Below are positions 1-5,865 of a stretch of 40,940 nucleotides of DNA, one piece after another (the first letter of the stretch is position 1; each line of letters starts with the position of its first letter). The stretch lies in the sequence record NC_015719.1. One strand, given 5' to 3'. The DNA comes from Escherichia phage K30. The position numbers and the translations under genes are program-made. Below the pieces are notes generated by a model that was not told the DNA's origin, searched no databases, and saw only the letters and a list, made by a program, of their open reading frames with translations.

Positions 1-193
1 TCTCACAGTTTACACTTTTGGTTATCCCCCGGTACCCTCTAAGTTAGCCCAAAGTAACCATAGGCCACCCTAAACCTTCGGTTTAACCTTAGGTTGGACT
101 GTTGGGAACCTTGGGTGATACTATATGTAGTGGTTAGTGTGACCTTGGGATACTATATGTTGATCTCTCTGTATCCCTATCTGTTGGTACTCT

Positions 194-224
194 CTAAGTA
201 TCCACTAAGTATCCACTAAGTAAC
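194..224. repeat. Tandem 11-bp repeat CTAAGTATCCA (about 2.7 copies)
   Basis: Read directly: ctaagtatcca ctaagtatcca ctaagtaac; position is analogous to the short repeats next to the T7 left terminal repeat. Confidence 0.7.
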
Positions 225-334
225 AACCTGAGGTTAGACCTGAGGACATCCATCGACACTATACCTAAGGTTAACTATGCGTCTAACGTTTAGTTACTAT
301 AAGGCTATTGGTGACCATTGTCCATACACCAATC

Positions 335-357
335 AATTAGGTCACACTATAGGGAGA
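335..357 (+). promoter_or_regulatory. Phage RNAP promoter (phiOL-like), aattaggtcacactatagggaga
   Basis: Matches the 23-bp consensus shared by the other 12 promoters; +1 G at about 352. Confidence 0.8.
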
Positions 358-459
358 CACTTAAAGTATTACTAAGAGACCTTTACCATAAAACTACTAT
401 CACTATAGGTCTAACTATAAGACTAACTATAGGTCTAACTAAAAGTTTAACTTTAGGTG

Positions 460-488
460 TTGACATTCAGCTTACGCTATGAGACATT
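460..488 (+). promoter_or_regulatory. Candidate host sigma70 early promoter (T7 A1-like)
   Basis: TTGACA at 460-465, 17-bp spacer, weak -10 GACATT; aligns with the T7 A1 region from memory. Confidence 0.35.
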
Positions 489-593
489 AGCAACCGTTGA
501 GAGACACAACGTCACCAACAACCAGACAATACCGCGAGTTATCTGGTTAGACTGAAGGTCTCAAGTAGTCATCAACCGGACATACGAAAGTGG

Positions 594-622
594 TTGACTC
601 AACGATGAACAAGTAGTAAGAT
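594..622 (+). promoter_or_regulatory. Candidate host sigma70 early promoter (T7 A2/A3-like)
   Basis: TTGACT at 594-599, 17-bp spacer, -10 TAAGAT at 617-622; resembles T7 A3. Confidence 0.45.
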
Positions 623-723
623 GTACCACAGATTCACAGCAACGAAGTACCGCTACCTAGTAGCATCGCTCTTTAACAATATAGTTTGTGTCTTGATAGG
701 CTTACTCACAAAGGTGAACTATT

Positions 724-888
724 ATGACTAACGCACAACGTAAACGCTATGAAGCATTACAAGAGAAACTTGCTGTTGCTTATGCCGCTTGGCAAGCTAA
801 CACAGACAAGAGCAAACACGATAAACTTTACAGTAAAGTGGTTGCAATTAATGCTAAAATAGATAAACTTGTGAATAGTACCTTATAA
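724..888 (+). CDS. Hypothetical small early protein (54 aa, MTNAQRKRYEALQEKL...)
   Basis: ORF below the track threshold; ATG preceded by aaaggtga; lies downstream of the host-type promoters and is flanked by inverted repeats. Confidence 0.35.
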   Translation: MTNAQRKRYEALQEKLAVAYAAWQANTDKSKHDKLYSKVVAINAKIDKLVNSTL

Positions 889-1109
889 GATAGTTGCTGG
901 CACTAGCCGGCCTATCAAGGCACAAACCAAGCTCTTTAACAATTTGGATTAGTCGCTGATATGTATACCACCGCAATAGTGTTTAACTAGTGGTCACATT
1001 CAGGTCTCTGGCAAGGTACGCCCTGCCACCCTGATGGTTAGGCATTGCGCCTAATGAGAGTGACCATAATGATAACCACTAACTATCAATTAACTGAAGG
1101 ATATACACC

Positions 1110-1460
1110 ATGGAACGTAATGCTAACGCTTACTATGAACTTTTGGCAGCCACTGTTGAAGCATTCAACGAGCACATTCAGTACGATAAACTCACCGAGG
1201 ATGATGACTGGTATGATGCACTGCACGAGGTGGTAGACAGTCATGTTCCGCACTATTACCACGAGATTTTCACGGTGATGGCTGCCGATGGTATTGATCA
1301 CGAGTTCGATGACTCAGATCTCATTCCTGACACCAAGGATGTAAGCCGAATCTGTCAAGCACGCATCTATGAGGCACTCTATAATGACATATTGAACGAC
1401 TCTAGAGTCATCTGGTGTGAGCAGGGTGAAGATGATGAAGAGGACGACTATAATGATTAA
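1110..1460 (+). CDS. ocr: Ocr-like DNA-mimic anti-restriction protein (T7 gene 0.3)
   Basis: 116 aa, very acidic; recalled similarity to T7 Ocr (VPHYY..IF.VMA..GID.EF.DS.L.PDTKDV.RI.QARIYE); first gene after the early promoters. Confidence 0.85.
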   Translation: MERNANAYYELLAATVEAFNEHIQYDKLTEDDDWYDALHEVVDSHVPHYYHEIFTVMAADGIDHEFDDSDLIPDTKDVSRICQARIYEALYNDILNDSRVIWCEQGEDDEEDDYND

Positions 1461-1635
1461 GTATGGCATCACTCAGCAGGACATGCAGGAATACCGCAGC
1501 GCCTTTAAGACCGCTTGCGAGTGCACTGCTGGTATGCCTGAAGCAAAAGCCGACTGGTTCGGCTACTACATGGCCCAAATGGCCCAGACCTATCGCACAC
1601 GCAAGGTAATGTATGATAACCCTGTTCGTAATTAG
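1453..1635 (+). CDS. Hypothetical early protein (gene 0.4-0.6 class)
   Basis: ORF with GAGGA upstream of the ATG; overlaps the ocr stop; no recognised homolog. Confidence 0.4.
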   Translation: MIKYGITQQDMQEYRSAFKTACECTAGMPEAKADWFGYYMAQMAQTYRTRKVMYDNPVRN

Positions 1636-1810
1636 CGTATACGCCCTGATTGTCCTGTACTTTGTGCGGGACTTTCGCAAGGGTCTCAAAGTGCACAAAG
1701 CATCATTCAGTTACCTGAAGTGGGGCTTCTTGCCTCGCTTTACTGTACGGCTGCCTAATGGCCGCTTTAAGGCAAACAAAGTGGGGATATTCTATGTCGC
1801 AACATACTAA
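1613..1810 (+). CDS. Hypothetical small early protein with hydrophobic N-terminus
   Basis: 65-aa ORF; N-terminal ITLFVISVYALIVLYFV suggests a transmembrane helix; AAGG upstream. Confidence 0.3.
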   Translation: MITLFVISVYALIVLYFVRDFRKGLKVHKASFSYLKWGFLPRFTVRLPNGRFKANKVGIFYVATY

Positions 1811-2027
1811 CCTGAAGAAAGCATTCAAGATTGCACGGATGGCGATGGCGTACGGCGCCGGGGAGAGGCGCACAAAGAGAATACTCGCGGCAGGTGCTGG
1901 AAGATTGCCAGCTAGACAACGTAAATGGGTAATGCAGCAAGTATACACGGAGTTATATCACCCTCAGCGTATACCGGATGATTGTATATGGTCATCTGTG
2001 GGCTGGAAACGAGTAGTAATTAACTAA
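1794..2027 (+). CDS. Hypothetical basic early protein
   Basis: ORF track 1758..2027; internal ATG at 1794 has a better-placed purine-rich stretch; start is uncertain. Confidence 0.3.
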   Translation: MSQHTNLKKAFKIARMAMAYGAGERRTKRILAAGAGRLPARQRKWVMQQVYTELYHPQRIPDDCIWSSVGWKRVVIN

Positions 2028-2052
2028 CTAACTAACACAAGGAAACAACCTA

Positions 2053-3057
2053 ATGAACTACACCGACATGCAAGCACGCTTAGACGTCATCCGCAACCTG
2101 CCAATCTGTGAACTTGACAAGCGCCAGCCGCTGCTGGTATCACTCATCGCAAACATCGTGAACTACGAGACGTCTGACGGTGACGATACGGACAGCAATT
2201 GGGGTCTTGAAAGTCAGGGCTACTGGCAAACCTTGAAGATTAAGGCTAAAGACGCTGGGTTTAACCTGCTGGGTAATGGCCACTTCAGCGCGGCGTTTAA
2301 GCACGAGCTACTGCCGGGCAAGGTCATTAAGGTTGGCTTTAAGAAAGAAGACTCAGGGGCCGCCTATGTGGCTTTCTGTCGGATGCACCAAGGTCGGGTA
2401 GGGATACCTAATGTCTATCACGTAGCGCGTCACGCTGGCTGCTATACGGTGGTACTTGATGAGCTGGAACCATGTCAGCGCCGTGATAACCATAAGCACG
2501 ACCATTATGCAGACCTTGCGTATTACTTTGTCGAGGGAGAACCAGACCCAGAGGTATACGCGAAGGATGATCTACCATTCATCGAGACGTGCCAGATGAT
2601 TCGTAAGTTCTTCTACGGGATTGCATCATTTGATATGCATAGTGGCAACATTATGTTTACACCGGATGGTAAACCAGTGATTACCGACCCAGTGTCATTC
2701 TCAGCGGACCGGGACCGCAAGCCTTTCTCGCTGGAGCCTGAGGGCCTGCTCGCAGAGATTGAGCAGATAGCGCACGACAAGATGATTGAACGCTGTAAGC
2801 GTAACAAGGCCAAACGTGACCGTGACAGTACGCTGTGTCGTGCCCGTAGAGCAAACAACAAGGCCCGTAGAAACCGCGCTAAAGCAGCCGCGCGATGGCG
2901 GAAGGAGCGGGAAAAGCGTGTTGCCGAGCGCTTTAAGTATGACCTTGCGAAAATCGAGGAGCGCGTTCTAGCGTGGCAAGTGGGACCCGGCCTAGCAATA
3001 CAACAAGGCAAGCCGCTACCAATCGACAACTACCTTCAAGGTAGACTTATGGGTTAA
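2053..3057 (+). CDS. 0.7: Serine/threonine protein kinase, host shut-off (T7 gene 0.7)
   Basis: 334 aa; recalled strong similarity to T7 gp0.7 (LPICELDKRQ, AGF..LGNGHFSAA, KVGFKKEDSGAAY.AFCRM, FDMHSGNIMF); synteny. Confidence 0.9.
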   Translation: MNYTDMQARLDVIRNLPICELDKRQPLLVSLIANIVNYETSDGDDTDSNWGLESQGYWQTLKIKAKDAGFNLLGNGHFSAAFKHELLPGKVIKVGFKKEDSGAAYVAFCRMHQGRVGIPNVYHVARHAGCYTVVLDELEPCQRRDNHKHDHYADLAYYFVEGEPDPEVYAKDDLPFIETCQMIRKFFYGIASFDMHSGNIMFTPDGKPVITDPVSFSADRDRKPFSLEPEGLLAEIEQIAHDKMIERCKRNKAKRDRDSTLCRARRANNKARRNRAKAAARWRKEREKRVAERFKYDLAKIEERVLAWQVGPGLAIQQGKPLPIDNYLQGRLMG

Positions 3058-3070
3058 CGAGGTGTATCTT

Positions 3071-3094
3071 AGGTGCCTCCACCGCGAGGCACCT
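3071..3094 (+). promoter_or_regulatory. Perfect 9-bp stem-loop upstream of gene 1 (possible R1-type processing site)
   Basis: aggtgcctc / caccgc / gaggcacct read directly; no T-run follows, so not a classic intrinsic terminator. Confidence 0.35.
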
Positions 3095-3144
3095 ATAGAT
3101 AAACTTTATTCACCGCCAGTTTACTGGCACCAAAGAGGCACACA

Positions 3145-5865
3145 ATGAACGCATTAAACATTGCACGTAATGACTTCTCAGAGATTGAACTGGCCGCTAT
3201 TCCGTACAACATCCTCAGTGAGCACTACGGGGACAGACTGGCACGTGAGCAGTTAGCACTGGAGCACGAAGCGTACGAGCTGGGCGAACAGCGTTTCCTG
3301 AAGATGTTAGAACGTCAGGTTAAAGCTGGTGAGTTCGCCGACAACGTGGCCGCTAAGCCGCTGGTCTTAACGCTGCACCCACAGCTAACCAAACGCATCG
3401 ACGATTGGAAGGAGGAGCAAGCAAACGCTCGCGGCAAGAAGCCTCGCGCATACTACCCGATTAAGCACGGCGTTGCCTCAGAGTTAGCCCTTAGCATGGG
3501 AGCTGAGGTACTCAATGAGAAGCGTGGAGTGTCCAGTGAGGCTATCGCACTGCTGACCATTAAGGTCGTCTTAGGGACGCTCACAGACGCCTCTAAAGCC
3601 ACCATCCAGCAAGTATCCTCGCAGTTAGGCAAGGCGCTTGAGGATGAGGCCCGCTTCGGTCGTATCCGTGAGCAGGAGGCTTCCTACTTCAAGAAGAACG
3701 TAGCGGACCAGCTGGACAAGCGTGTGGGTCACGTGTACAAGAAGGCTTTCATGCAGGTCGTCGAGGCCGATATGATTTCCAAGGGGATGCTAGGCGGTGA
3801 CAACTGGTCCAGCTGGAAGACCGACGAGCAGATGCACGTTGGGACCAAGCTACTGGAACTACTCATTGAGGGCACTGGTCTGGTGGAAATGACCAAGAAC
3901 AAGATGGCCGATGGCTCTGACGATGTGACCAGCATGCAAATGGTCCAGCTGGCTCCAGCCTTCGTGGAACTACTGAGTAAACGAGCGGGAGCACTCGCAG
4001 GAATCAGCCCAATGTACCAACCGTGCGTAGTCCCTCCGAAACCTTGGGTTGAAACCGTGGGAGGTGGCTACTGGTCTGTAGGTCGTCGTCCGCTGGCACT
4101 GGTGCGTACCCACTCCAAGAAGGCACTGCGTCGCTACGAAGACGTTCACATGCCAGAGGTATACAAAGCGGTCAACCTCGCGCAGAACACACCGTGGAAG
4201 GTAAACAAGAAGGTACTGGCGGTAGTCAATGAGATTATCAACTGGAAGCACTGCCCGGTGGGTGACGTCCCAGCGATTGAACGCGAAGAGCTACCACCAC
4301 GCCCGGACGATATCGACACCAACGAGGTGGCACGTAAGGCTTGGCGCAAGGAGGCCGCAGCGGTTTACCGTAAGGACAAGGCCCGCCAGTCTCGCCGCTT
4401 GTCGATGGAGTTCATGGTCGCACAGGCCAACAAGTTCGCTAACCACAAGGCCATCTGGTTCCCGTACAACATGGACTGGCGTGGTCGTGTGTACGCTGTG
4501 AGCATGTTTAACCCACAGGGTAATGATATGACCAAGGGTATGCTGACATTGGCCAAAGGTAAGCCAATCGGTCTCGATGGGTTCTACTGGCTGAAGATTC
4601 ATGGTGCAAACTGTGCAGGCGTCGATAAGGTTCCTTTCCCTGAGCGCATCAAGTTCATCGAAGAGAACGAGGCCAACATTCTAGCGAGTGCAGCCGACCC
4701 GCTGAATAACACTTGGTGGACCCAGCAAGATTCACCGTTCTGTTTCTTAGCGTTCTGCTTTGAGTATGCAGGGGTAAAACATCACGGCCTGAATTATAAC
4801 TGTTCGCTGCCACTGGCGTTCGATGGGTCCTGCTCTGGGATTCAGCACTTCAGCGCAATGCTCCGCGATTCTATCGGTGGTCGTGCTGTTAACCTGCTGC
4901 CTTCTGATACCGTGCAGGATATCTACAAGATTGTTGCCGACAAGGTTAATGAGGTACTCCACCAGCACGTTATCAACGGGTCTCAGACGGTGGTCGAGCA
5001 GATTGCTGATAAGGAGACTGGTGAGTTCCGCGAGAAGGTAATGTTGGGCGAGTCTGTACTAGCTGCTCAATGGTTACAATACGGGGTGACCCGCAAGGTG
5101 ACCAAGCGTTCTGTCATGACGTTGGCGTATGGTTCCAAAGAGTTTGGCTTCCGCCAGCAAGTTCTGGAAGATACCATTCAGCCCGCTATCGACAATGGTG
5201 AGGGCCTGATGTTTACGCACCCTAACCAAGCGGCTGGCTACATGGCTAAGCTGATTTGGGACGCTGTGACCGTGACCGTAGTAGCCGCTGTCGAGGCGAT
5301 GAACTGGCTGAAGTCTGCTGCTAAACTGCTTGCCGCTGAAGTCAAGGATAAGAAGACCAAGGAGGTACTTCGTAAGCGTTGCGCAATCCACTGGGTAACA
5401 CCAGATGGCTTCCCAGTGTGGCAAGAGTACCGCAAGCAGAATCAAGCGCGCCTGAAGCTGGTCTTCCTAGGTCAAGCCAACGTTAAGATGACGTACAACA
5501 CCGGGAAGGACTCAGAGATTGACGCTCACAAGCAGGAATCTGGTATCGCTCCTAACTTTGTACACTCGCAAGACGGTAGTCACCTTCGCATGACCGTAGT
5601 ACATGCCAACGAGGTCTACGGGATTGACTCCTTCGCACTCATCCATGACTCCTTCGGGACCATTCCGGCAGACGCTGGGAATCTCTTTAAGGCAGTCCGT
5701 GAGACGATGGTAAAGACCTACGAGGACAACGATGTAATCGCTGACTTCTACAACCAGTTCGCTGACCAGCTGCACGAGTCTCAGCTTGACAAGATGCCAG
5801 CGGTACCAGCCAAAGGTGACCTTAATCTGCGTGATATCTTAGAGTCTGACTTTGCGTTTGCGTAA
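3145..5865 (+). CDS. 1: Single-subunit DNA-directed RNA polymerase (T7 gene 1)
   Basis: 906 aa; colinear recalled similarity to T7 RNAP across the whole length; C-terminal ...ILESDFAFA. Confidence 0.98.
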   Translation: MNALNIARNDFSEIELAAIPYNILSEHYGDRLAREQLALEHEAYELGEQRFLKMLERQVKAGEFADNVAAKPLVLTLHPQLTKRIDDWKEEQANARGKKPRAYYPIKHGVASELALSMGAEVLNEKRGVSSEAIALLTIKVVLGTLTDASKATIQQVSSQLGKALEDEARFGRIREQEASYFKKNVADQLDKRVGHVYKKAFMQVVEADMISKGMLGGDNWSSWKTDEQMHVGTKLLELLIEGTGLVEMTKNKMADGSDDVTSMQMVQLAPAFVELLSKRAGALAGISPMYQPCVVPPKPWVETVGGGYWSVGRRPLALVRTHSKKALRRYEDVHMPEVYKAVNLAQNTPWKVNKKVLAVVNEIINWKHCPVGDVPAIEREELPPRPDDIDTNEVARKAWRKEAAAVYRKDKARQSRRLSMEFMVAQANKFANHKAIWFPYNMDWRGRVYAVSMFNPQGNDMTKGMLTLAKGKPIGLDGFYWLKIHGANCAGVDKVPFPERIKFIEENEANILASAADPLNNTWWTQQDSPFCFLAFCFEYAGVKHHGLNYNCSLPLAFDGSCSGIQHFSAMLRDSIGGRAVNLLPSDTVQDIYKIVADKVNEVLHQHVINGSQTVVEQIADKETGEFREKVMLGESVLAAQWLQYGVTRKVTKRSVMTLAYGSKEFGFRQQVLEDTIQPAIDNGEGLMFTHPNQAAGYMAKLIWDAVTVTVVAAVEAMNWLKSAAKLLAAEVKDKKTKEVLRKRCAIHWVTPDGFPVWQEYRKQNQARLKLVFLGQANVKMTYNTGKDSEIDAHKQESGIAPNFVHSQDGSHLRMTVVHANEVYGIDSFALIHDSFGTIPADAGNLFKAVRETMVKTYEDNDVIADFYNQFADQLHESQLDKMPAVPAKGDLNLRDILESDFAFA

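What the first reader, a model, noticed from the sequence alone, without database searches (positions are those of the whole stretch)
724..2027. Left-end cluster of small, overlapping early ORFs with no recognisable function
Four small ORFs (724-888, 1453-1635, 1613-1810, 1794-2027) sit alongside ocr in the region transcribed by host RNA polymerase. This is where T7-like phages place host-takeover and anti-defence genes, and only ocr and the 0.7 kinase are recognisable. The rest are candidates for new anti-defence or host-interaction functions.
Basis: inference. Interest (0 to 1): 0.5.

Follow-up and report, generated by a model that had tools for sequence, protein, structure and literature searches.

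The report
Early accessory genes of phage K30
The four small ORFs beside ocr at the left end of this T7-like phage (Escherichia phage K30) are real, conserved early genes: one belongs to the family of T7 gp0.4, which blocks host cell division; two are the still uncharacterised T3/K11 genes 0.6 and 0.65; and one is a small gene cassette picked up from SP6-like coliphages. This is ordinary for the phage group, but three of the four still have no known function.

Summary
ORFs A (724-888), B (1453-1635), C (1613-1810) and D (1794-2027) all have Shine-Dalgarno sequences. All show purifying selection in the named frame only (pN/pS 0.2-0.4, against 0.87 or more in the other frames). All recur in related phages. 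The window is Escherichia phage K30, a Przondovirus.

- B is recognisable. It belongs to the T7 gp0.4 family (Pfam PF26807 Phage_T7_GP04), sits in the same slot after ocr, and keeps the residues T7 Gp0.4 needs to inhibit FtsZ. It has a 12-residue insertion between the two predicted helices. It most likely blocks host cell division.
- C is the T3 gp0.6 / K11 "0.6A" family: a membrane anchor plus a very basic, nearly invariant beta domain. It is found in 728 phage records and its function is unknown.
- D is a longer version of T3 gp0.65: a basic three-helix protein of unknown function.
- A is 96% identical to K1E gp2.8. It lies in a 263-bp cassette bounded by two rrn-type boxA sequences. Related phages carry one boxA and no cassette.

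The parts
335..357 (+). Phage-RNAP promoter-like sequence AATTAGGTCACACTATAGGGAGA, counterpart of K11 phiOL. Context only.
   Evidence: Read from the sequence. K11 phiOL is annotated at 479-501, and K11 439-758 aligns to window 296-637.
594..622 (+). Sigma-70-type early promoter-like site (TTGACT, 17 nt, TAAGAT). It is the counterpart of the second annotated host-RNAP promoter of K11 and lies upstream of all four ORFs.
   Evidence: Consensus scan. The K11 'host RNAP promoter' at 715-751 maps here through the 86.6% alignment. A TTGACA at 457-462 lies where the first K11 host promoter maps.
668..678 (+). boxA copy 1 (GCTCTTTAACA). This is the resident rrn-type antitermination box of the early leader and forms the left boundary of the ORF A cassette.
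   Evidence: Perfect match to the consensus GYTCTTTAANA (PMC5725501). These are the only two matches in the 40.9-kb window, both on the + strand.
683..930 (+). Inserted segment absent from related Przondovirus genomes. Together with one boxA copy it forms a 263-bp cassette.
   Evidence: VLCpiA3d, phi1_146048, KP32_196 and K11 align up to window 682 and resume at 931, with a single boxA. Window 668-957 is 94.5% identical to K1E 1975-2264 (alignment).
724..888 (+). ORF A: 54 aa, basic (pI 9.8). Member of the K1E gp2.8 family (phrog_16783). Function unknown.
889..916 (+). Stem-loop GAUAG..GCUGGC-ACUA-GCCGGC-CUAUC directly after ORF A and 14 nt before boxA 2. The hairpin-plus-boxA arrangement is rrn-like. 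It is not followed by a U run.
   Evidence: RNA fold of 886-945: -16.2 kcal/mol, z -2.1. The same unit is repeated in K1E.
931..941 (+). boxA copy 2 (GCTCTTTAACA), the right boundary of the cassette.
1110..1460 (+). ocr (gene 0.3). Context only; its stop overlaps the start of B.
   Evidence: Pfam PF08684 E 1e-28, and 48% identity to T7 gp0.3.
1453..1635 (+). ORF B: 60 aa. Member of the gp0.4 family (phrog_5058 / Pfam Phage_T7_GP04) and predicted FtsZ-binding inhibitor of cell division. It carries a 12-residue insertion between the two predicted helices.
1613..1810 (+). ORF C: 65 aa. Member of the T3 gp0.6 / K11 gp0.6A family (phrog_2385). It has an N-terminal transmembrane helix and a basic four-stranded beta domain. 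Function unknown.
1794..2027 (+). ORF D: 77 aa, pI 11.0. Long form of the T3 gp0.65 family (phrog_23914, related to phrog_10380). It has three helices and a C-terminal beta hairpin. Function unknown.
2021..2036 (+). TAAC x4, giving stop codons in all three frames. This marks the end of the overlapping ocr-B-C-D run, ahead of the kinase gene (2053-3057).
   Evidence: Read from the sequence.

Best explanation
The region is the accessory part of the class I (early, host-RNAP-transcribed) operon of Escherichia phage K30, a K11/KP32-like relative of T7. It is a mosaic of interchangeable small genes.

Shown:
- All four ORFs are conserved protein-coding genes.
- ocr, B, C and D form one overlapping run, consistent with translational coupling, and the run ends in an all-frame stop block.
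- B is the positional and sequence counterpart of T7 gene 0.4.
- C and D are the counterparts of T3 genes 0.6 and 0.65.
- A lies in a 263-bp cassette bounded by two boxA sequences. The cassette is nearly identical to the gene 2.8 cassette of SP6-like E. coli K1 phages.

Inferred:
- B folds as a helical hairpin. Through the conserved hydrophobic face (M11, F18, F36, M40, M43, Y47, which align with T7 V15, V22, W28, M32, L35, Y39) it binds monomeric FtsZ at the polymerisation surface. This stops Z-ring assembly, so the infected cell cannot divide.
- C is anchored in the inner membrane by residues 2-18, with its basic beta domain in the cytoplasm. It probably acts on an envelope-associated host target. 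It occupies exactly the slot that T7 fills with the membrane protein gp0.5 and the MreB-targeting gp0.6.
- D is a small basic three-helix protein. It always accompanies C and probably binds a nucleic acid or a host protein.
- A arrived by recombination at the boxA/hairpin repeats during co-infection of E. coli with a Vectrevirus. Its function is unknown.
For: Coding status: pN/pS and SD sequences.

Identity of the phage.

B belongs to the gp0.4 family:
- 50% identity to K11 gp0.4.
- T7 gp0.4 hits B's PHROG family at E 9e-5, and K11 gp0.4 hits T7's PHROG family at 2e-4.
- Profile-profile hhalign gives E 1.7e-4 over 39 columns, against 0.12-0.78 for control pairs. The score of 23.4 compares with a maximum of 15.4 in 200 column shuffles.
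- The precomputed Pfam family PF26807 Phage_T7_GP04 is on both T7-type proteins and the 60-aa type that is 87-90% identical to B, at 'weak' level.
- Locus L072 carries a K11-type allele in the 0.4 slot of a T7-like genome.
- The residues invariant across all alleles (G5, T7, M40, Y47) include T7 M32 and Y39. All six positions whose substitution abolishes T7 Gp0.4 toxicity stay hydrophobic or aromatic.
- The T7 mechanism is taken from PMC13423816.

C:
- 92% identity to K11 gp0.6A and 65% to T3 gp0.6.
- 31 invariant columns.
- AF2 predicts a helix at 2-22 plus four strands, pLDDT 73. The best 17-residue hydropathy window scores 2.65 at residue 2, and the soluble part has pI 11.1.
- C and T7 0.5/0.6A never co-occur: 65 loci against 13, with none carrying both.
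- T7 Gp0.6 targets MreB (PMC6965359).

D:
- Reciprocal PHROG hits, and hhalign E 7e-12 over the first 43 columns.
- AF2 pLDDT 86.6.
- In every locus with complete context D accompanies C (30 of 31; the exception, L038, is cut off at its end).

A and its cassette. A second boxA-bounded indel, K1E gene 2.5, is absent from L091.
Against: - There is no expression or functional data for any of the four proteins in this phage or its genus.
- The link from B to T7 gp0.4 is remote: 23% identity, hhalign probability only 49%, and the Pfam hit is flagged weak. B itself did not hit the T7 PHROG family directly.
- B has a 12-residue insertion with two cysteines and a different, basic C-terminus, so its target or mode of binding could have shifted.
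- The mutual exclusivity of C and T7 0.5/0.6 is confounded by phylogeny.
- The direction and mechanism of the ORF A transfer are inferred from distribution: about 17 Vectrevirus records against 3 Przondovirus genomes including this window.
Confidence: 0.7

Rival explanations
1. One reading: all four are novel anti-defence genes that inhibit restriction or other immune systems, as ocr does.
For: They sit in the earliest-expressed region next to ocr. The slots are highly variable between related phages: A is present in only three Przondovirus genomes, D or the 0.65 type is present, swapped or absent, and gp0.4 comes in five or more alleles. Such variability is typical of accessory counter-defence loci. 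A, C and D have no assigned function.
Against: B belongs to a family whose characterised member is a host-takeover protein that inhibits FtsZ. That member is a trigger of immunity (CapRel-Ebc), not an inhibitor of it. No similarity to any known anti-defence protein was found, and no defence-related context exists. C is nearly invariant across 728 phages of at least ten host genera. That fits a conserved housekeeping target better than a strain-specific defence system.
Confidence: 0.2
2. B is a gp0.4 homologue that has changed target. The 12-residue Cys-containing insertion and the basic C-terminus give it a function other than FtsZ inhibition.
For: There is an insertion between the two helices, and the C-terminus differs (YRTRKVMYDNPVRN against YENNKAIALESAE). 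B has pI 8.6 against 4.7 for T7 gp0.4. None of the six T7 residues needed for CapRel activation is kept. Within the allele the insertion is under strong purifying selection (pN/pS 0.09), so it is functional.
Against: The six FtsZ-contact positions are conserved in character, and M32, L35 and Y39 are almost invariant across every allele, long or short. The insertion falls in the loop, away from those positions. Part of the C-terminal conservation is explained by dual coding with the start of gene C (pS 0 in codons 53-60).
Confidence: 0.2
3. C and D are made partly as one protein by ribosomal frameshifting, like the proposed 0.6A/0.6B pairs of T7 and phiYeO3-12. On this view D is not an independent gene.
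For: The best BFVD structural match of the D model is the 'putative 0.6B protein' of phiYeO3-12, at 38% identity over 55 columns. The D frame is open for 75 nt upstream of its ATG in 26 of 30 loci. Database proteins that fuse C and D exist, such as P0179.
Against: D has its own conserved SD and ATG. The upstream extension is closed 9-12 nt before the ATG in L042 and in T3-like L087. Its sequence varies where C has synonymous changes. No slippery site was identified. P0179 looks like an indel artefact or mutant.
Confidence: 0.08
4. Some or all of the ORFs are chance open frames in a transcribed leader and are not translated.
For: They are very short (54-77 aa). A has only 19 variable sites to judge from. 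No expression data are available.
Against: Purifying selection is frame-specific for all four. All have SD sequences and maintained reading frames across dozens to hundreds of genomes, and overlaps are conserved.
Confidence: 0.03

Closest known systems
T7 gp0.4 (Pfam PF26807 Phage_T7_GP04), the FtsZ-sequestering inhibitor of cell division
   Same: B occupies the same slot directly after gene 0.3 and is of similar size. It shares the YGLTxQ N-terminal motif and the MAQLxxxY second-helix motif. The FtsZ-contact positions are conserved in character. The profile match is significant against shuffles.
   Different: Only about 23% identity. B has a 12-residue insertion (TACECTAGMPEA region) between the helices, a basic rather than acidic C-terminus, and none of the CapRel-Ebc-activating residues. 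FtsZ binding has not been tested.
K11 gp0.4 and the other Przondovirus gp0.4 alleles (phrog_5058)
   Same: B shares their family, slot and conserved C-terminal YRTRKVMY(D/G)NPVRN, which overlaps the start of the next gene.
   Different: K11 has the 48-aa short form. The window has one of two 60-aa long forms. The central third differs between alleles.
T3 gp0.6 / K11 'gp0.6A' / phiYeO3-12 gp0.6 (phrog_2385)
   Same: C shares 65-92% identity with these proteins, the same length, the same transmembrane helix, and the same position before 0.65/0.7.
   Different: Nothing material; C is a plain member. The family has no known function and no Pfam entry.
T7 gp0.5 and gp0.6A/B (gp0.6 reported to target MreB)
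   Same: They occupy the same slot between 0.4 and 0.7 and never co-occur with C. T7 gp0.5 is a membrane protein and gp0.6 is basic, features that C combines in one chain.
   Different: No detectable sequence relationship (hhalign E 0.028 and 0.28; BLAST found nothing). The K11 label '0.6A' is positional, not a statement of homology.
T3 gp0.65 (phrog_10380)
   Same: The N-terminal 43 residues of D align at profile E 7e-12. D shares the MAYGA(S/G)..TKRIL..ARQ motif and the same position, with a start that overlaps the end of gene 0.6.
   Different: D is 77 aa against 55-56 aa. Its third helix differs, and it has about 22 extra C-terminal residues predicted as a beta hairpin.
K1E gp2.8 (Vectrevirus, phrog_16783)
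   Same: A is 96% identical in protein and 94.5% in DNA over 291 bp including both flanks. In both phages it lies just upstream of the ocr-like gene.
   Different: The host genome is a T7-like Przondovirus rather than an SP6-like Vectrevirus. The family is tiny, with four 90% clusters in 5.8 billion proteins.
rrn-type boxA antitermination sites of E. coli and of the T7/T3 early leader
   Same: Both copies match the consensus GYTCTTTAANA exactly, lie on the transcribed strand downstream of the early promoters, and are each preceded by a hairpin.
   Different: The window has two copies where 69 of 80 related loci have one. Here the copies also mark the ends of an inserted gene cassette. Nus-factor binding is untested.

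Membership tests
T7 gp0.4 family (Pfam PF26807 Phage_T7_GP04) | Significant sequence or profile match to the family | tested here: met
   Cross-family PHROG hits at 9e-5 and 2e-4. hhalign E 1.7e-4, score 23.4 against a shuffle maximum of 15.4. PF26807 is precomputed on proteins 87-90% identical to B, flagged 'weak'. The local Pfam copy lacks this model, so B itself could not be scored against it.
T7 gp0.4 family (Pfam PF26807 Phage_T7_GP04) | Gene located directly downstream of gene 0.3 in the early operon | tested here: met
   The B start overlaps the ocr stop. T7 0.4 starts at the last base of 0.3. L072 shows a K11-type allele in a T7-like 0.4 slot.
T7 gp0.4 family (Pfam PF26807 Phage_T7_GP04) | Residues required for FtsZ inhibition in T7 Gp0.4 (V15, V22, W28, M32, L35, Y39) | tested here: met
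   The aligned residues in B are M11, F18, F36, M40, M43 and Y47. M and Y are invariant and L is nearly invariant across all alleles. The substitutions are conservative, not identical.
T7 gp0.4 family (Pfam PF26807 Phage_T7_GP04) | Fold of two antiparallel alpha-helices of about 50 aa | not tested
T7 gp0.4 family (Pfam PF26807 Phage_T7_GP04) | Binds FtsZ monomers and blocks division, and is toxic when over-expressed | not testable with these tools
   Needs wet-lab work or complex modelling. The mechanism is known only for T7.
T3 gp0.6 / K11 gp0.6A family (phrog_2385) | Full-length sequence match, N-terminal transmembrane helix, position before 0.65/0.7 | tested here: met
   phrog_2385 E 5e-29. 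92% and 65% identity. TM helix (TMD noted for gene 0.6 in PMC4283147). Position.
T7 gp0.6A/B (MreB-targeting protein, phrog_8393) | Sequence or profile similarity to T7 gp0.6A | tested here: not met
   No BLAST hit for C. hhalign C against the T7 0.6A profile gives E 0.028 over 13 columns, probability 1.8%. Different PHROG families.
T3 gp0.65 family (phrog_10380) | Sequence match and position after gene 0.6 with an overlapping start | tested here: met
   BLAST E 7e-7. Reciprocal PHROG hits at 4.6e-7 and 8e-6. hhalign E 7e-12 over columns 1-43. The C-terminal 30 residues have no counterpart.
K1E gp2.8 family (phrog_16783) | Full-length sequence match | tested here: met
   phrog_16783 E 2.5e-40. 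96% identity to K1E gp2.8.
rrn-type boxA (Nus-factor loading site) | Match to GYTCTTTAANA on the transcribed strand downstream of a host promoter | tested here: met
   Perfect matches at 668 and 931, and none elsewhere in the window. From the pattern's degeneracy, about 0.006 matches would be expected per 3 kb; this figure is my own calculation.
rrn-type boxA (Nus-factor loading site) | Binding of NusB/NusE and antitermination | not testable with these tools
That the T7/T3 early leader carries a boxA is recalled from the T7 literature. Only the sequences themselves were checked (T7 813, T3 781).
Known anti-defence or defence-related protein families | Similarity to any catalogued family | tested here: not met
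   No hits for A-D in PADLOC, Pfam or NCBIfam. PHROGs places all four under 'unknown function'. No dedicated anti-defence library was available.

The most novel reading that the evidence does not exclude
The hairpin-plus-boxA units of the early leader may act as portable recombination boundaries. They would let small early genes move as cassettes between distantly related Autographiviridae: SP6-like Vectrevirus and T7-like Przondovirus sharing E. coli or Klebsiella hosts. ORF A would be one such mobile accessory gene with a host-specific counter-defence or takeover role. In parallel, the membrane-anchored C, with its constant companion D, would be an unrecognised functional replacement for T7 gp0.5/gp0.6 that acts on the envelope or cytoskeleton. 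The discrete gp0.4 alleles would then represent alternative surfaces that keep FtsZ binding while escaping guard-type sensors such as CapRel.
Probability: 0.25. Interest if true: 0.55.

Novelty: new member of a known kind. Interest (0 to 1): 0.3.

Why it matters
Public records annotate all four genes, and hundreds of their homologues in therapeutic-candidate Klebsiella phages, only as hypothetical proteins.

Recognising the 0.4-slot gene of Przondovirus as a gp0.4-type FtsZ inhibitor gives it a testable function. It also matters for immunity: T7 Gp0.4 bound to FtsZ is the trigger of the CapRel-Ebc defence system, and the K30/Klebsiella alleles differ at exactly the positions that CapRel-Ebc needs.

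C is one of the most widely conserved uncharacterised early proteins of T3/K11-like phages, present in 728 records, so a function found for it would apply broadly.

The boxA-bounded cassette gives a concrete picture of how the left-end accessory region gains genes. None of this is a new kind of system.

Tried and rejected
- Pfam, NCBIfam and PADLOC scans of A-D found nothing above noise. The local Pfam copy lacks PF26807, so T7 gp0.4 itself scores nothing there.
- Profile search of solved structures: for D only de novo helical barrels (a composition artefact); for C nothing.
- Foldseek against BFVD for D gave no hit at E 0.001 or better. The top hit is its own relative, phiYeO3-12 '0.6B'.
- The afdb50 fold library was unavailable.
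- An exhaustive profile search with C found only 11 representatives among 1.84 billion proteins, all of the same small-protein family.
- A search with A found only four clusters, all at 87% identity or more. A was also compared with the gp0.4, 0.6A, C and D profiles, giving E 0.05-0.56.
- Paralogy of B and D, suggested by the shared AMAYGA motif, was rejected as an overall relationship (hhalign E 0.12). The motif is nevertheless a real recombination point (chimera P0165).
- The idea of ongoing diversifying selection in the middle of gp0.4 was rejected. Within alleles pN/pS is 0.04-0.09 there, so the variation is between discrete alleles.
- Rfam found nothing in 1-3300.
- The fold of 943-1109, the expected RNase III site region, is not significantly stable (z -1.6).
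- Literature searches found no functional study of gp0.6, gp0.65 or gp2.8, and no paper on boxA in SP6-like phages.
Full report
**What the window is.** The left 3.2 kb matches Klebsiella Przondovirus genomes, which are T7 relatives of the K11/KP32 type. The closest is VLCpiA3d at 92.9%. ORFs A, C and D are exact matches to EnPhK30_gp01, gp04 and gp05 of Escherichia phage K30, on a contig of 40,940 bp, the length of the window. IMG/VR holds the same contig (L009). The host is therefore E. coli with a K30 capsule. This matters below.

**Checking the observation.** The four ORFs are at the stated coordinates.
- Each ATG has an SD-like sequence 5-9 nt upstream. The alternative ATG of D at 1758 has none.
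- B starts 8 nt before the ocr stop, C starts 23 nt before the B stop, and D starts 17 nt before the C stop.
- The run ends in TAACTAACTAACTAAC, which gives stops in all three frames, just before the kinase gene.
- I fetched 80 related loci with the kinase as bait and located homologues of each ORF in them.
- Nei-Gojobori counts show purifying selection only in the annotated frames: B 0.41 and 0.39, C 0.20, D 0.31 and 0.27. The shifted frames give 1.05-3.47.
- Within the window-like allele of B the ratio is 0.08-0.14. Synonymous change falls to zero in the eight codons that overlap gene C.
- For A only six sequences exist. They give 19 variable sites split 4/4/11 by codon position and pN/pS 0.40, against 1.56 and 0.87 in the other frames.

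The ORFs are genes, not chance frames. I have no expression data.

**Transcription context.**
- K11's annotated phiOL and second host-RNAP promoter map onto window 335-357 and 594-622. A TTGACA at 457-462 lies where the first host promoter maps.
- Two perfect matches to the boxA consensus GYTCTTTAANA (PMC5725501) lie at 668 and 931. They are the only matches in the whole window.

**ORF B is a gp0.4.**
- B is 50% identical to K11 gp0.4 apart from a 12-residue insertion.
- T7 gp0.4 scores E 9e-5 against B's PHROG family over almost its full length. K11 gp0.4 scores 2e-4 against the T7 gp0.4 PHROG.
- A profile of 41 Przondovirus sequences aligns to a profile of 12 T7-type sequences at E 1.7e-4 over 39 columns, with one 12-column gap. 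Control pairs give 0.12-0.78.
- In 200 column shuffles of the T7 profile the best score was 15.4, against 23.4 for the real pair.
- In the large protein collection, both T7-type proteins and 60-residue proteins 87-90% identical to B carry the precomputed Pfam family PF26807, named Phage_T7_GP04. For the long type the hit is flagged weak.
- The gene sits in the same place, directly after gene 0.3. Locus L072, a T7-like genome with T7-type 0.5 and 0.6, carries a K11-type allele in that slot.

T7 Gp0.4 is a 51-residue pair of antiparallel helices. It binds the synergy-loop face of monomeric FtsZ (Kd 382 nM) and prevents polymerisation. Substitutions V15A, V22A, W28A/L, M32A, L35A/P and Y39A abolish its toxicity (PMC13423816). 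In the family alignment these positions correspond to M11, F18, F36, M40, M43 and Y47 of B. M40 and Y47 are invariant and L43 nearly invariant over all alleles.

The six residues T7 Gp0.4 needs to activate the CapRel-Ebc defence protein are not conserved. Those residues are A12, T14, L16, S19, R23 and K36.

My reading is that B is an FtsZ-binding inhibitor of division, with probability about 0.6. The homology is shown; the mechanism is inferred. Phage K30's host has the same FtsZ as T7's host.

**Alleles of gp0.4.** In Przondovirus the family comes as at least five discrete alleles. Two are 60-residue forms with the loop insertion and three are 48-residue forms. The N-terminal YG(L/I)TxQ and the C-terminal MAQLAQTYRTRKVMY are conserved, and the middle differs. 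Each allele is itself under strong purifying selection. This looks like allele replacement rather than continuous diversification.

**ORF C is T3 gp0.6.**
- C is 92% identical to K11 'gp0.6A' and 65% to T3 gp0.6. It belongs to phrog_2385.
- tblastn finds the family in 728 phage records infecting Klebsiella, Escherichia, Salmonella, Pectobacterium, Yersinia, Erwinia, Citrobacter, Enterobacter and Serratia. All are annotated as hypothetical or 'putative transmembrane protein'.
- Thirty-one of 65 columns are invariant across the sampled genera.
- An exhaustive profile search of 1.84 billion representatives found only 11, all of them the same small protein. There is no Pfam family for it.
- AlphaFold2 (pLDDT 73) predicts a helix at 2-22 followed by a four-stranded antiparallel sheet.
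- The first 18 residues are strongly hydrophobic. The rest has 11 K+R against one acidic residue, pI 11.1. By the positive-inside rule the domain should face the cytoplasm.
- The K11 label '0.6A' is positional only. C shows no relationship to T7 gp0.6A or gp0.5.
- C and T7 0.5/0.6A are perfectly exclusive in the slot between 0.4 and 0.7: 65 loci against 13, none with both. Both combinations with either gp0.4 type occur.
- T7 Gp0.6 is reported to target MreB (PMC6965359).

C may be a functional alternative acting at the membrane. That is a guess at about 0.15-0.2.

**ORF D is a long gp0.65.**
- D matches T3 gp0.65 at E 7e-7, with reciprocal PHROG hits. The profile comparison gives E 7e-12 over the first 43 columns.
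- Invariant residues are M1, A14, M18, Y20, G21, A40, R41 and L54.
- The 77-residue form occurs in 78 phage records. In the 80 loci, 14 have the long form, 17 have the 56-residue T3-like form and the rest have neither. Every locus with complete context that has either form also has C.
- AlphaFold2 gives a confident model (pLDDT 86.6) of three helices (3-19, 24-34, 40-55) and a terminal hairpin.
- D is very basic (pI 11.0).

I can say only that it looks like a small nucleic-acid-binding or protein-binding module.

**A possible C-D fusion.** The best viral structural match to D is the 'putative 0.6B' of phiYeO3-12, a proposed 0.6-0.65 frameshift fusion. The D frame is open 75 nt upstream in most loci, but it is closed within 9-12 nt in L042 and in T3-like L087. 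I therefore treat a fusion product as unlikely.

**ORF A is a borrowed cassette.**
- A is 96% identical to gp2.8 of E. coli phage K1E. It is found in about 17 Vectrevirus (SP6-like) records and otherwise only in Klebsiella phages K74PH129C2 and P3a.
- The whole protein universe holds four clusters, all at 87% identity or more.
- Related Przondovirus genomes run straight from window 682 to 931 with a single boxA. The window has boxA, a 45-nt leader, ORF A, a hairpin, a conserved spacer and a second boxA. Window 668-957 is 94.5% identical in DNA to K1E 1975-2264.
- Of the 80 T7-like loci, 69 have one boxA, 10 have none and only the window has two. Vectrevirus genomes have three.
- In K1E the segment between its second and third boxA (gene 2.5) is missing from the otherwise collinear contig L091. 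That is a second indel bounded the same way.
- The hairpin after ORF A (889-916, -16.2 kcal/mol, z -2.1), followed by boxA, resembles the hairpin-boxA order of rrn leaders.

I infer that the repeated hairpin/boxA units supply the homology for cassette exchange, and that K30 acquired ORF A from a Vectrevirus in a shared E. coli host. The function of A, a 54-residue basic protein, is unknown.

**Verdict.** C and D remain members of known but uncharacterised families. Novelty: new members of known kinds. Interest: modest, 0.3.

Noticed in passing
protein P0165 (metagenomic contig, 40,635 bp); compare window 1453-1515 and 1857-2027: A natural chimera. Residues 1-21 are K11-type gp0.4, joined at the shared AMAYGA motif to residues 22-77 of the D family. 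This implies recombination between genes 0.4 and D that deleted gene C. Overall B-D paralogy is not supported (hhalign E 0.12).
   Followed up: partly
K1E locus L007 1663-1975 against L091 2445: K1E gene 2.5 lies between two boxA copies and is absent from an otherwise collinear Vectrevirus contig. This is a second boxA-bounded indel. Vectrevirus early regions carry three boxA units, each preceded by a hairpin.
   Followed up: partly
window 1110-1460, and loci L006 (K11) and L008 (K74PH129C2): The gene 0.3 slot alternates between ocr and a T3-type SAM lyase among closely related Przondovirus genomes. The window's ocr is also 78% identical in DNA to K1E gene 3 over 332 nt.
   Followed up: no
L001 (VLCpiA3d) 943-1293, corresponding to window ~1097: The closest relative has its own 350-bp insertion with a 112-aa hypothetical ORF directly upstream of ocr, at a different point from the ORF A cassette.
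   Followed up: no
window 2021-2036: TAAC repeated four times gives stop codons in all three frames between D and the kinase gene.
   Followed up: no
loci L010, L020, L025, L048, L054, L056 (IMG/VR): A variant junction. Here gp0.4 has a long alternative C-terminal tail (..NATPSRNHSAPGIFAHPYGVRERLS) and gene C has a different N-terminus (MPLPLVIIALLGYS..). This suggests a frameshifted or rearranged 0.4/0.6 overlap that is nevertheless maintained in several genomes.
   Followed up: no
window 1719-1793: The reading frame of D is open 75 nt upstream of its ATG inside gene C in 26 of 30 loci. phiYeO3-12 has an annotated 'putative 0.6B' fusion. No slippery site was seen, and the frame is closed in two loci.
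   Followed up: partly
window 943-1109: The leader between boxA 2 and ocr contains a long imperfect stem (GUGGUCAC...GUGACCAU) with an internal hairpin, at the spot where T3 has the RNase III site R0.3. The fold is not significantly more stable than shuffles (z -1.6).
   Followed up: partly
tool libraries: The local Pfam-A copy lacks PF26807 (Phage_T7_GP04), PF27024 (Phage_T7_kinase) and PF23780 (S-AdoMet_lyase). The precomputed tables carry all three, so a 'no Pfam hit' from the local scan is not evidence of absence for these phage families.
   Followed up: yes
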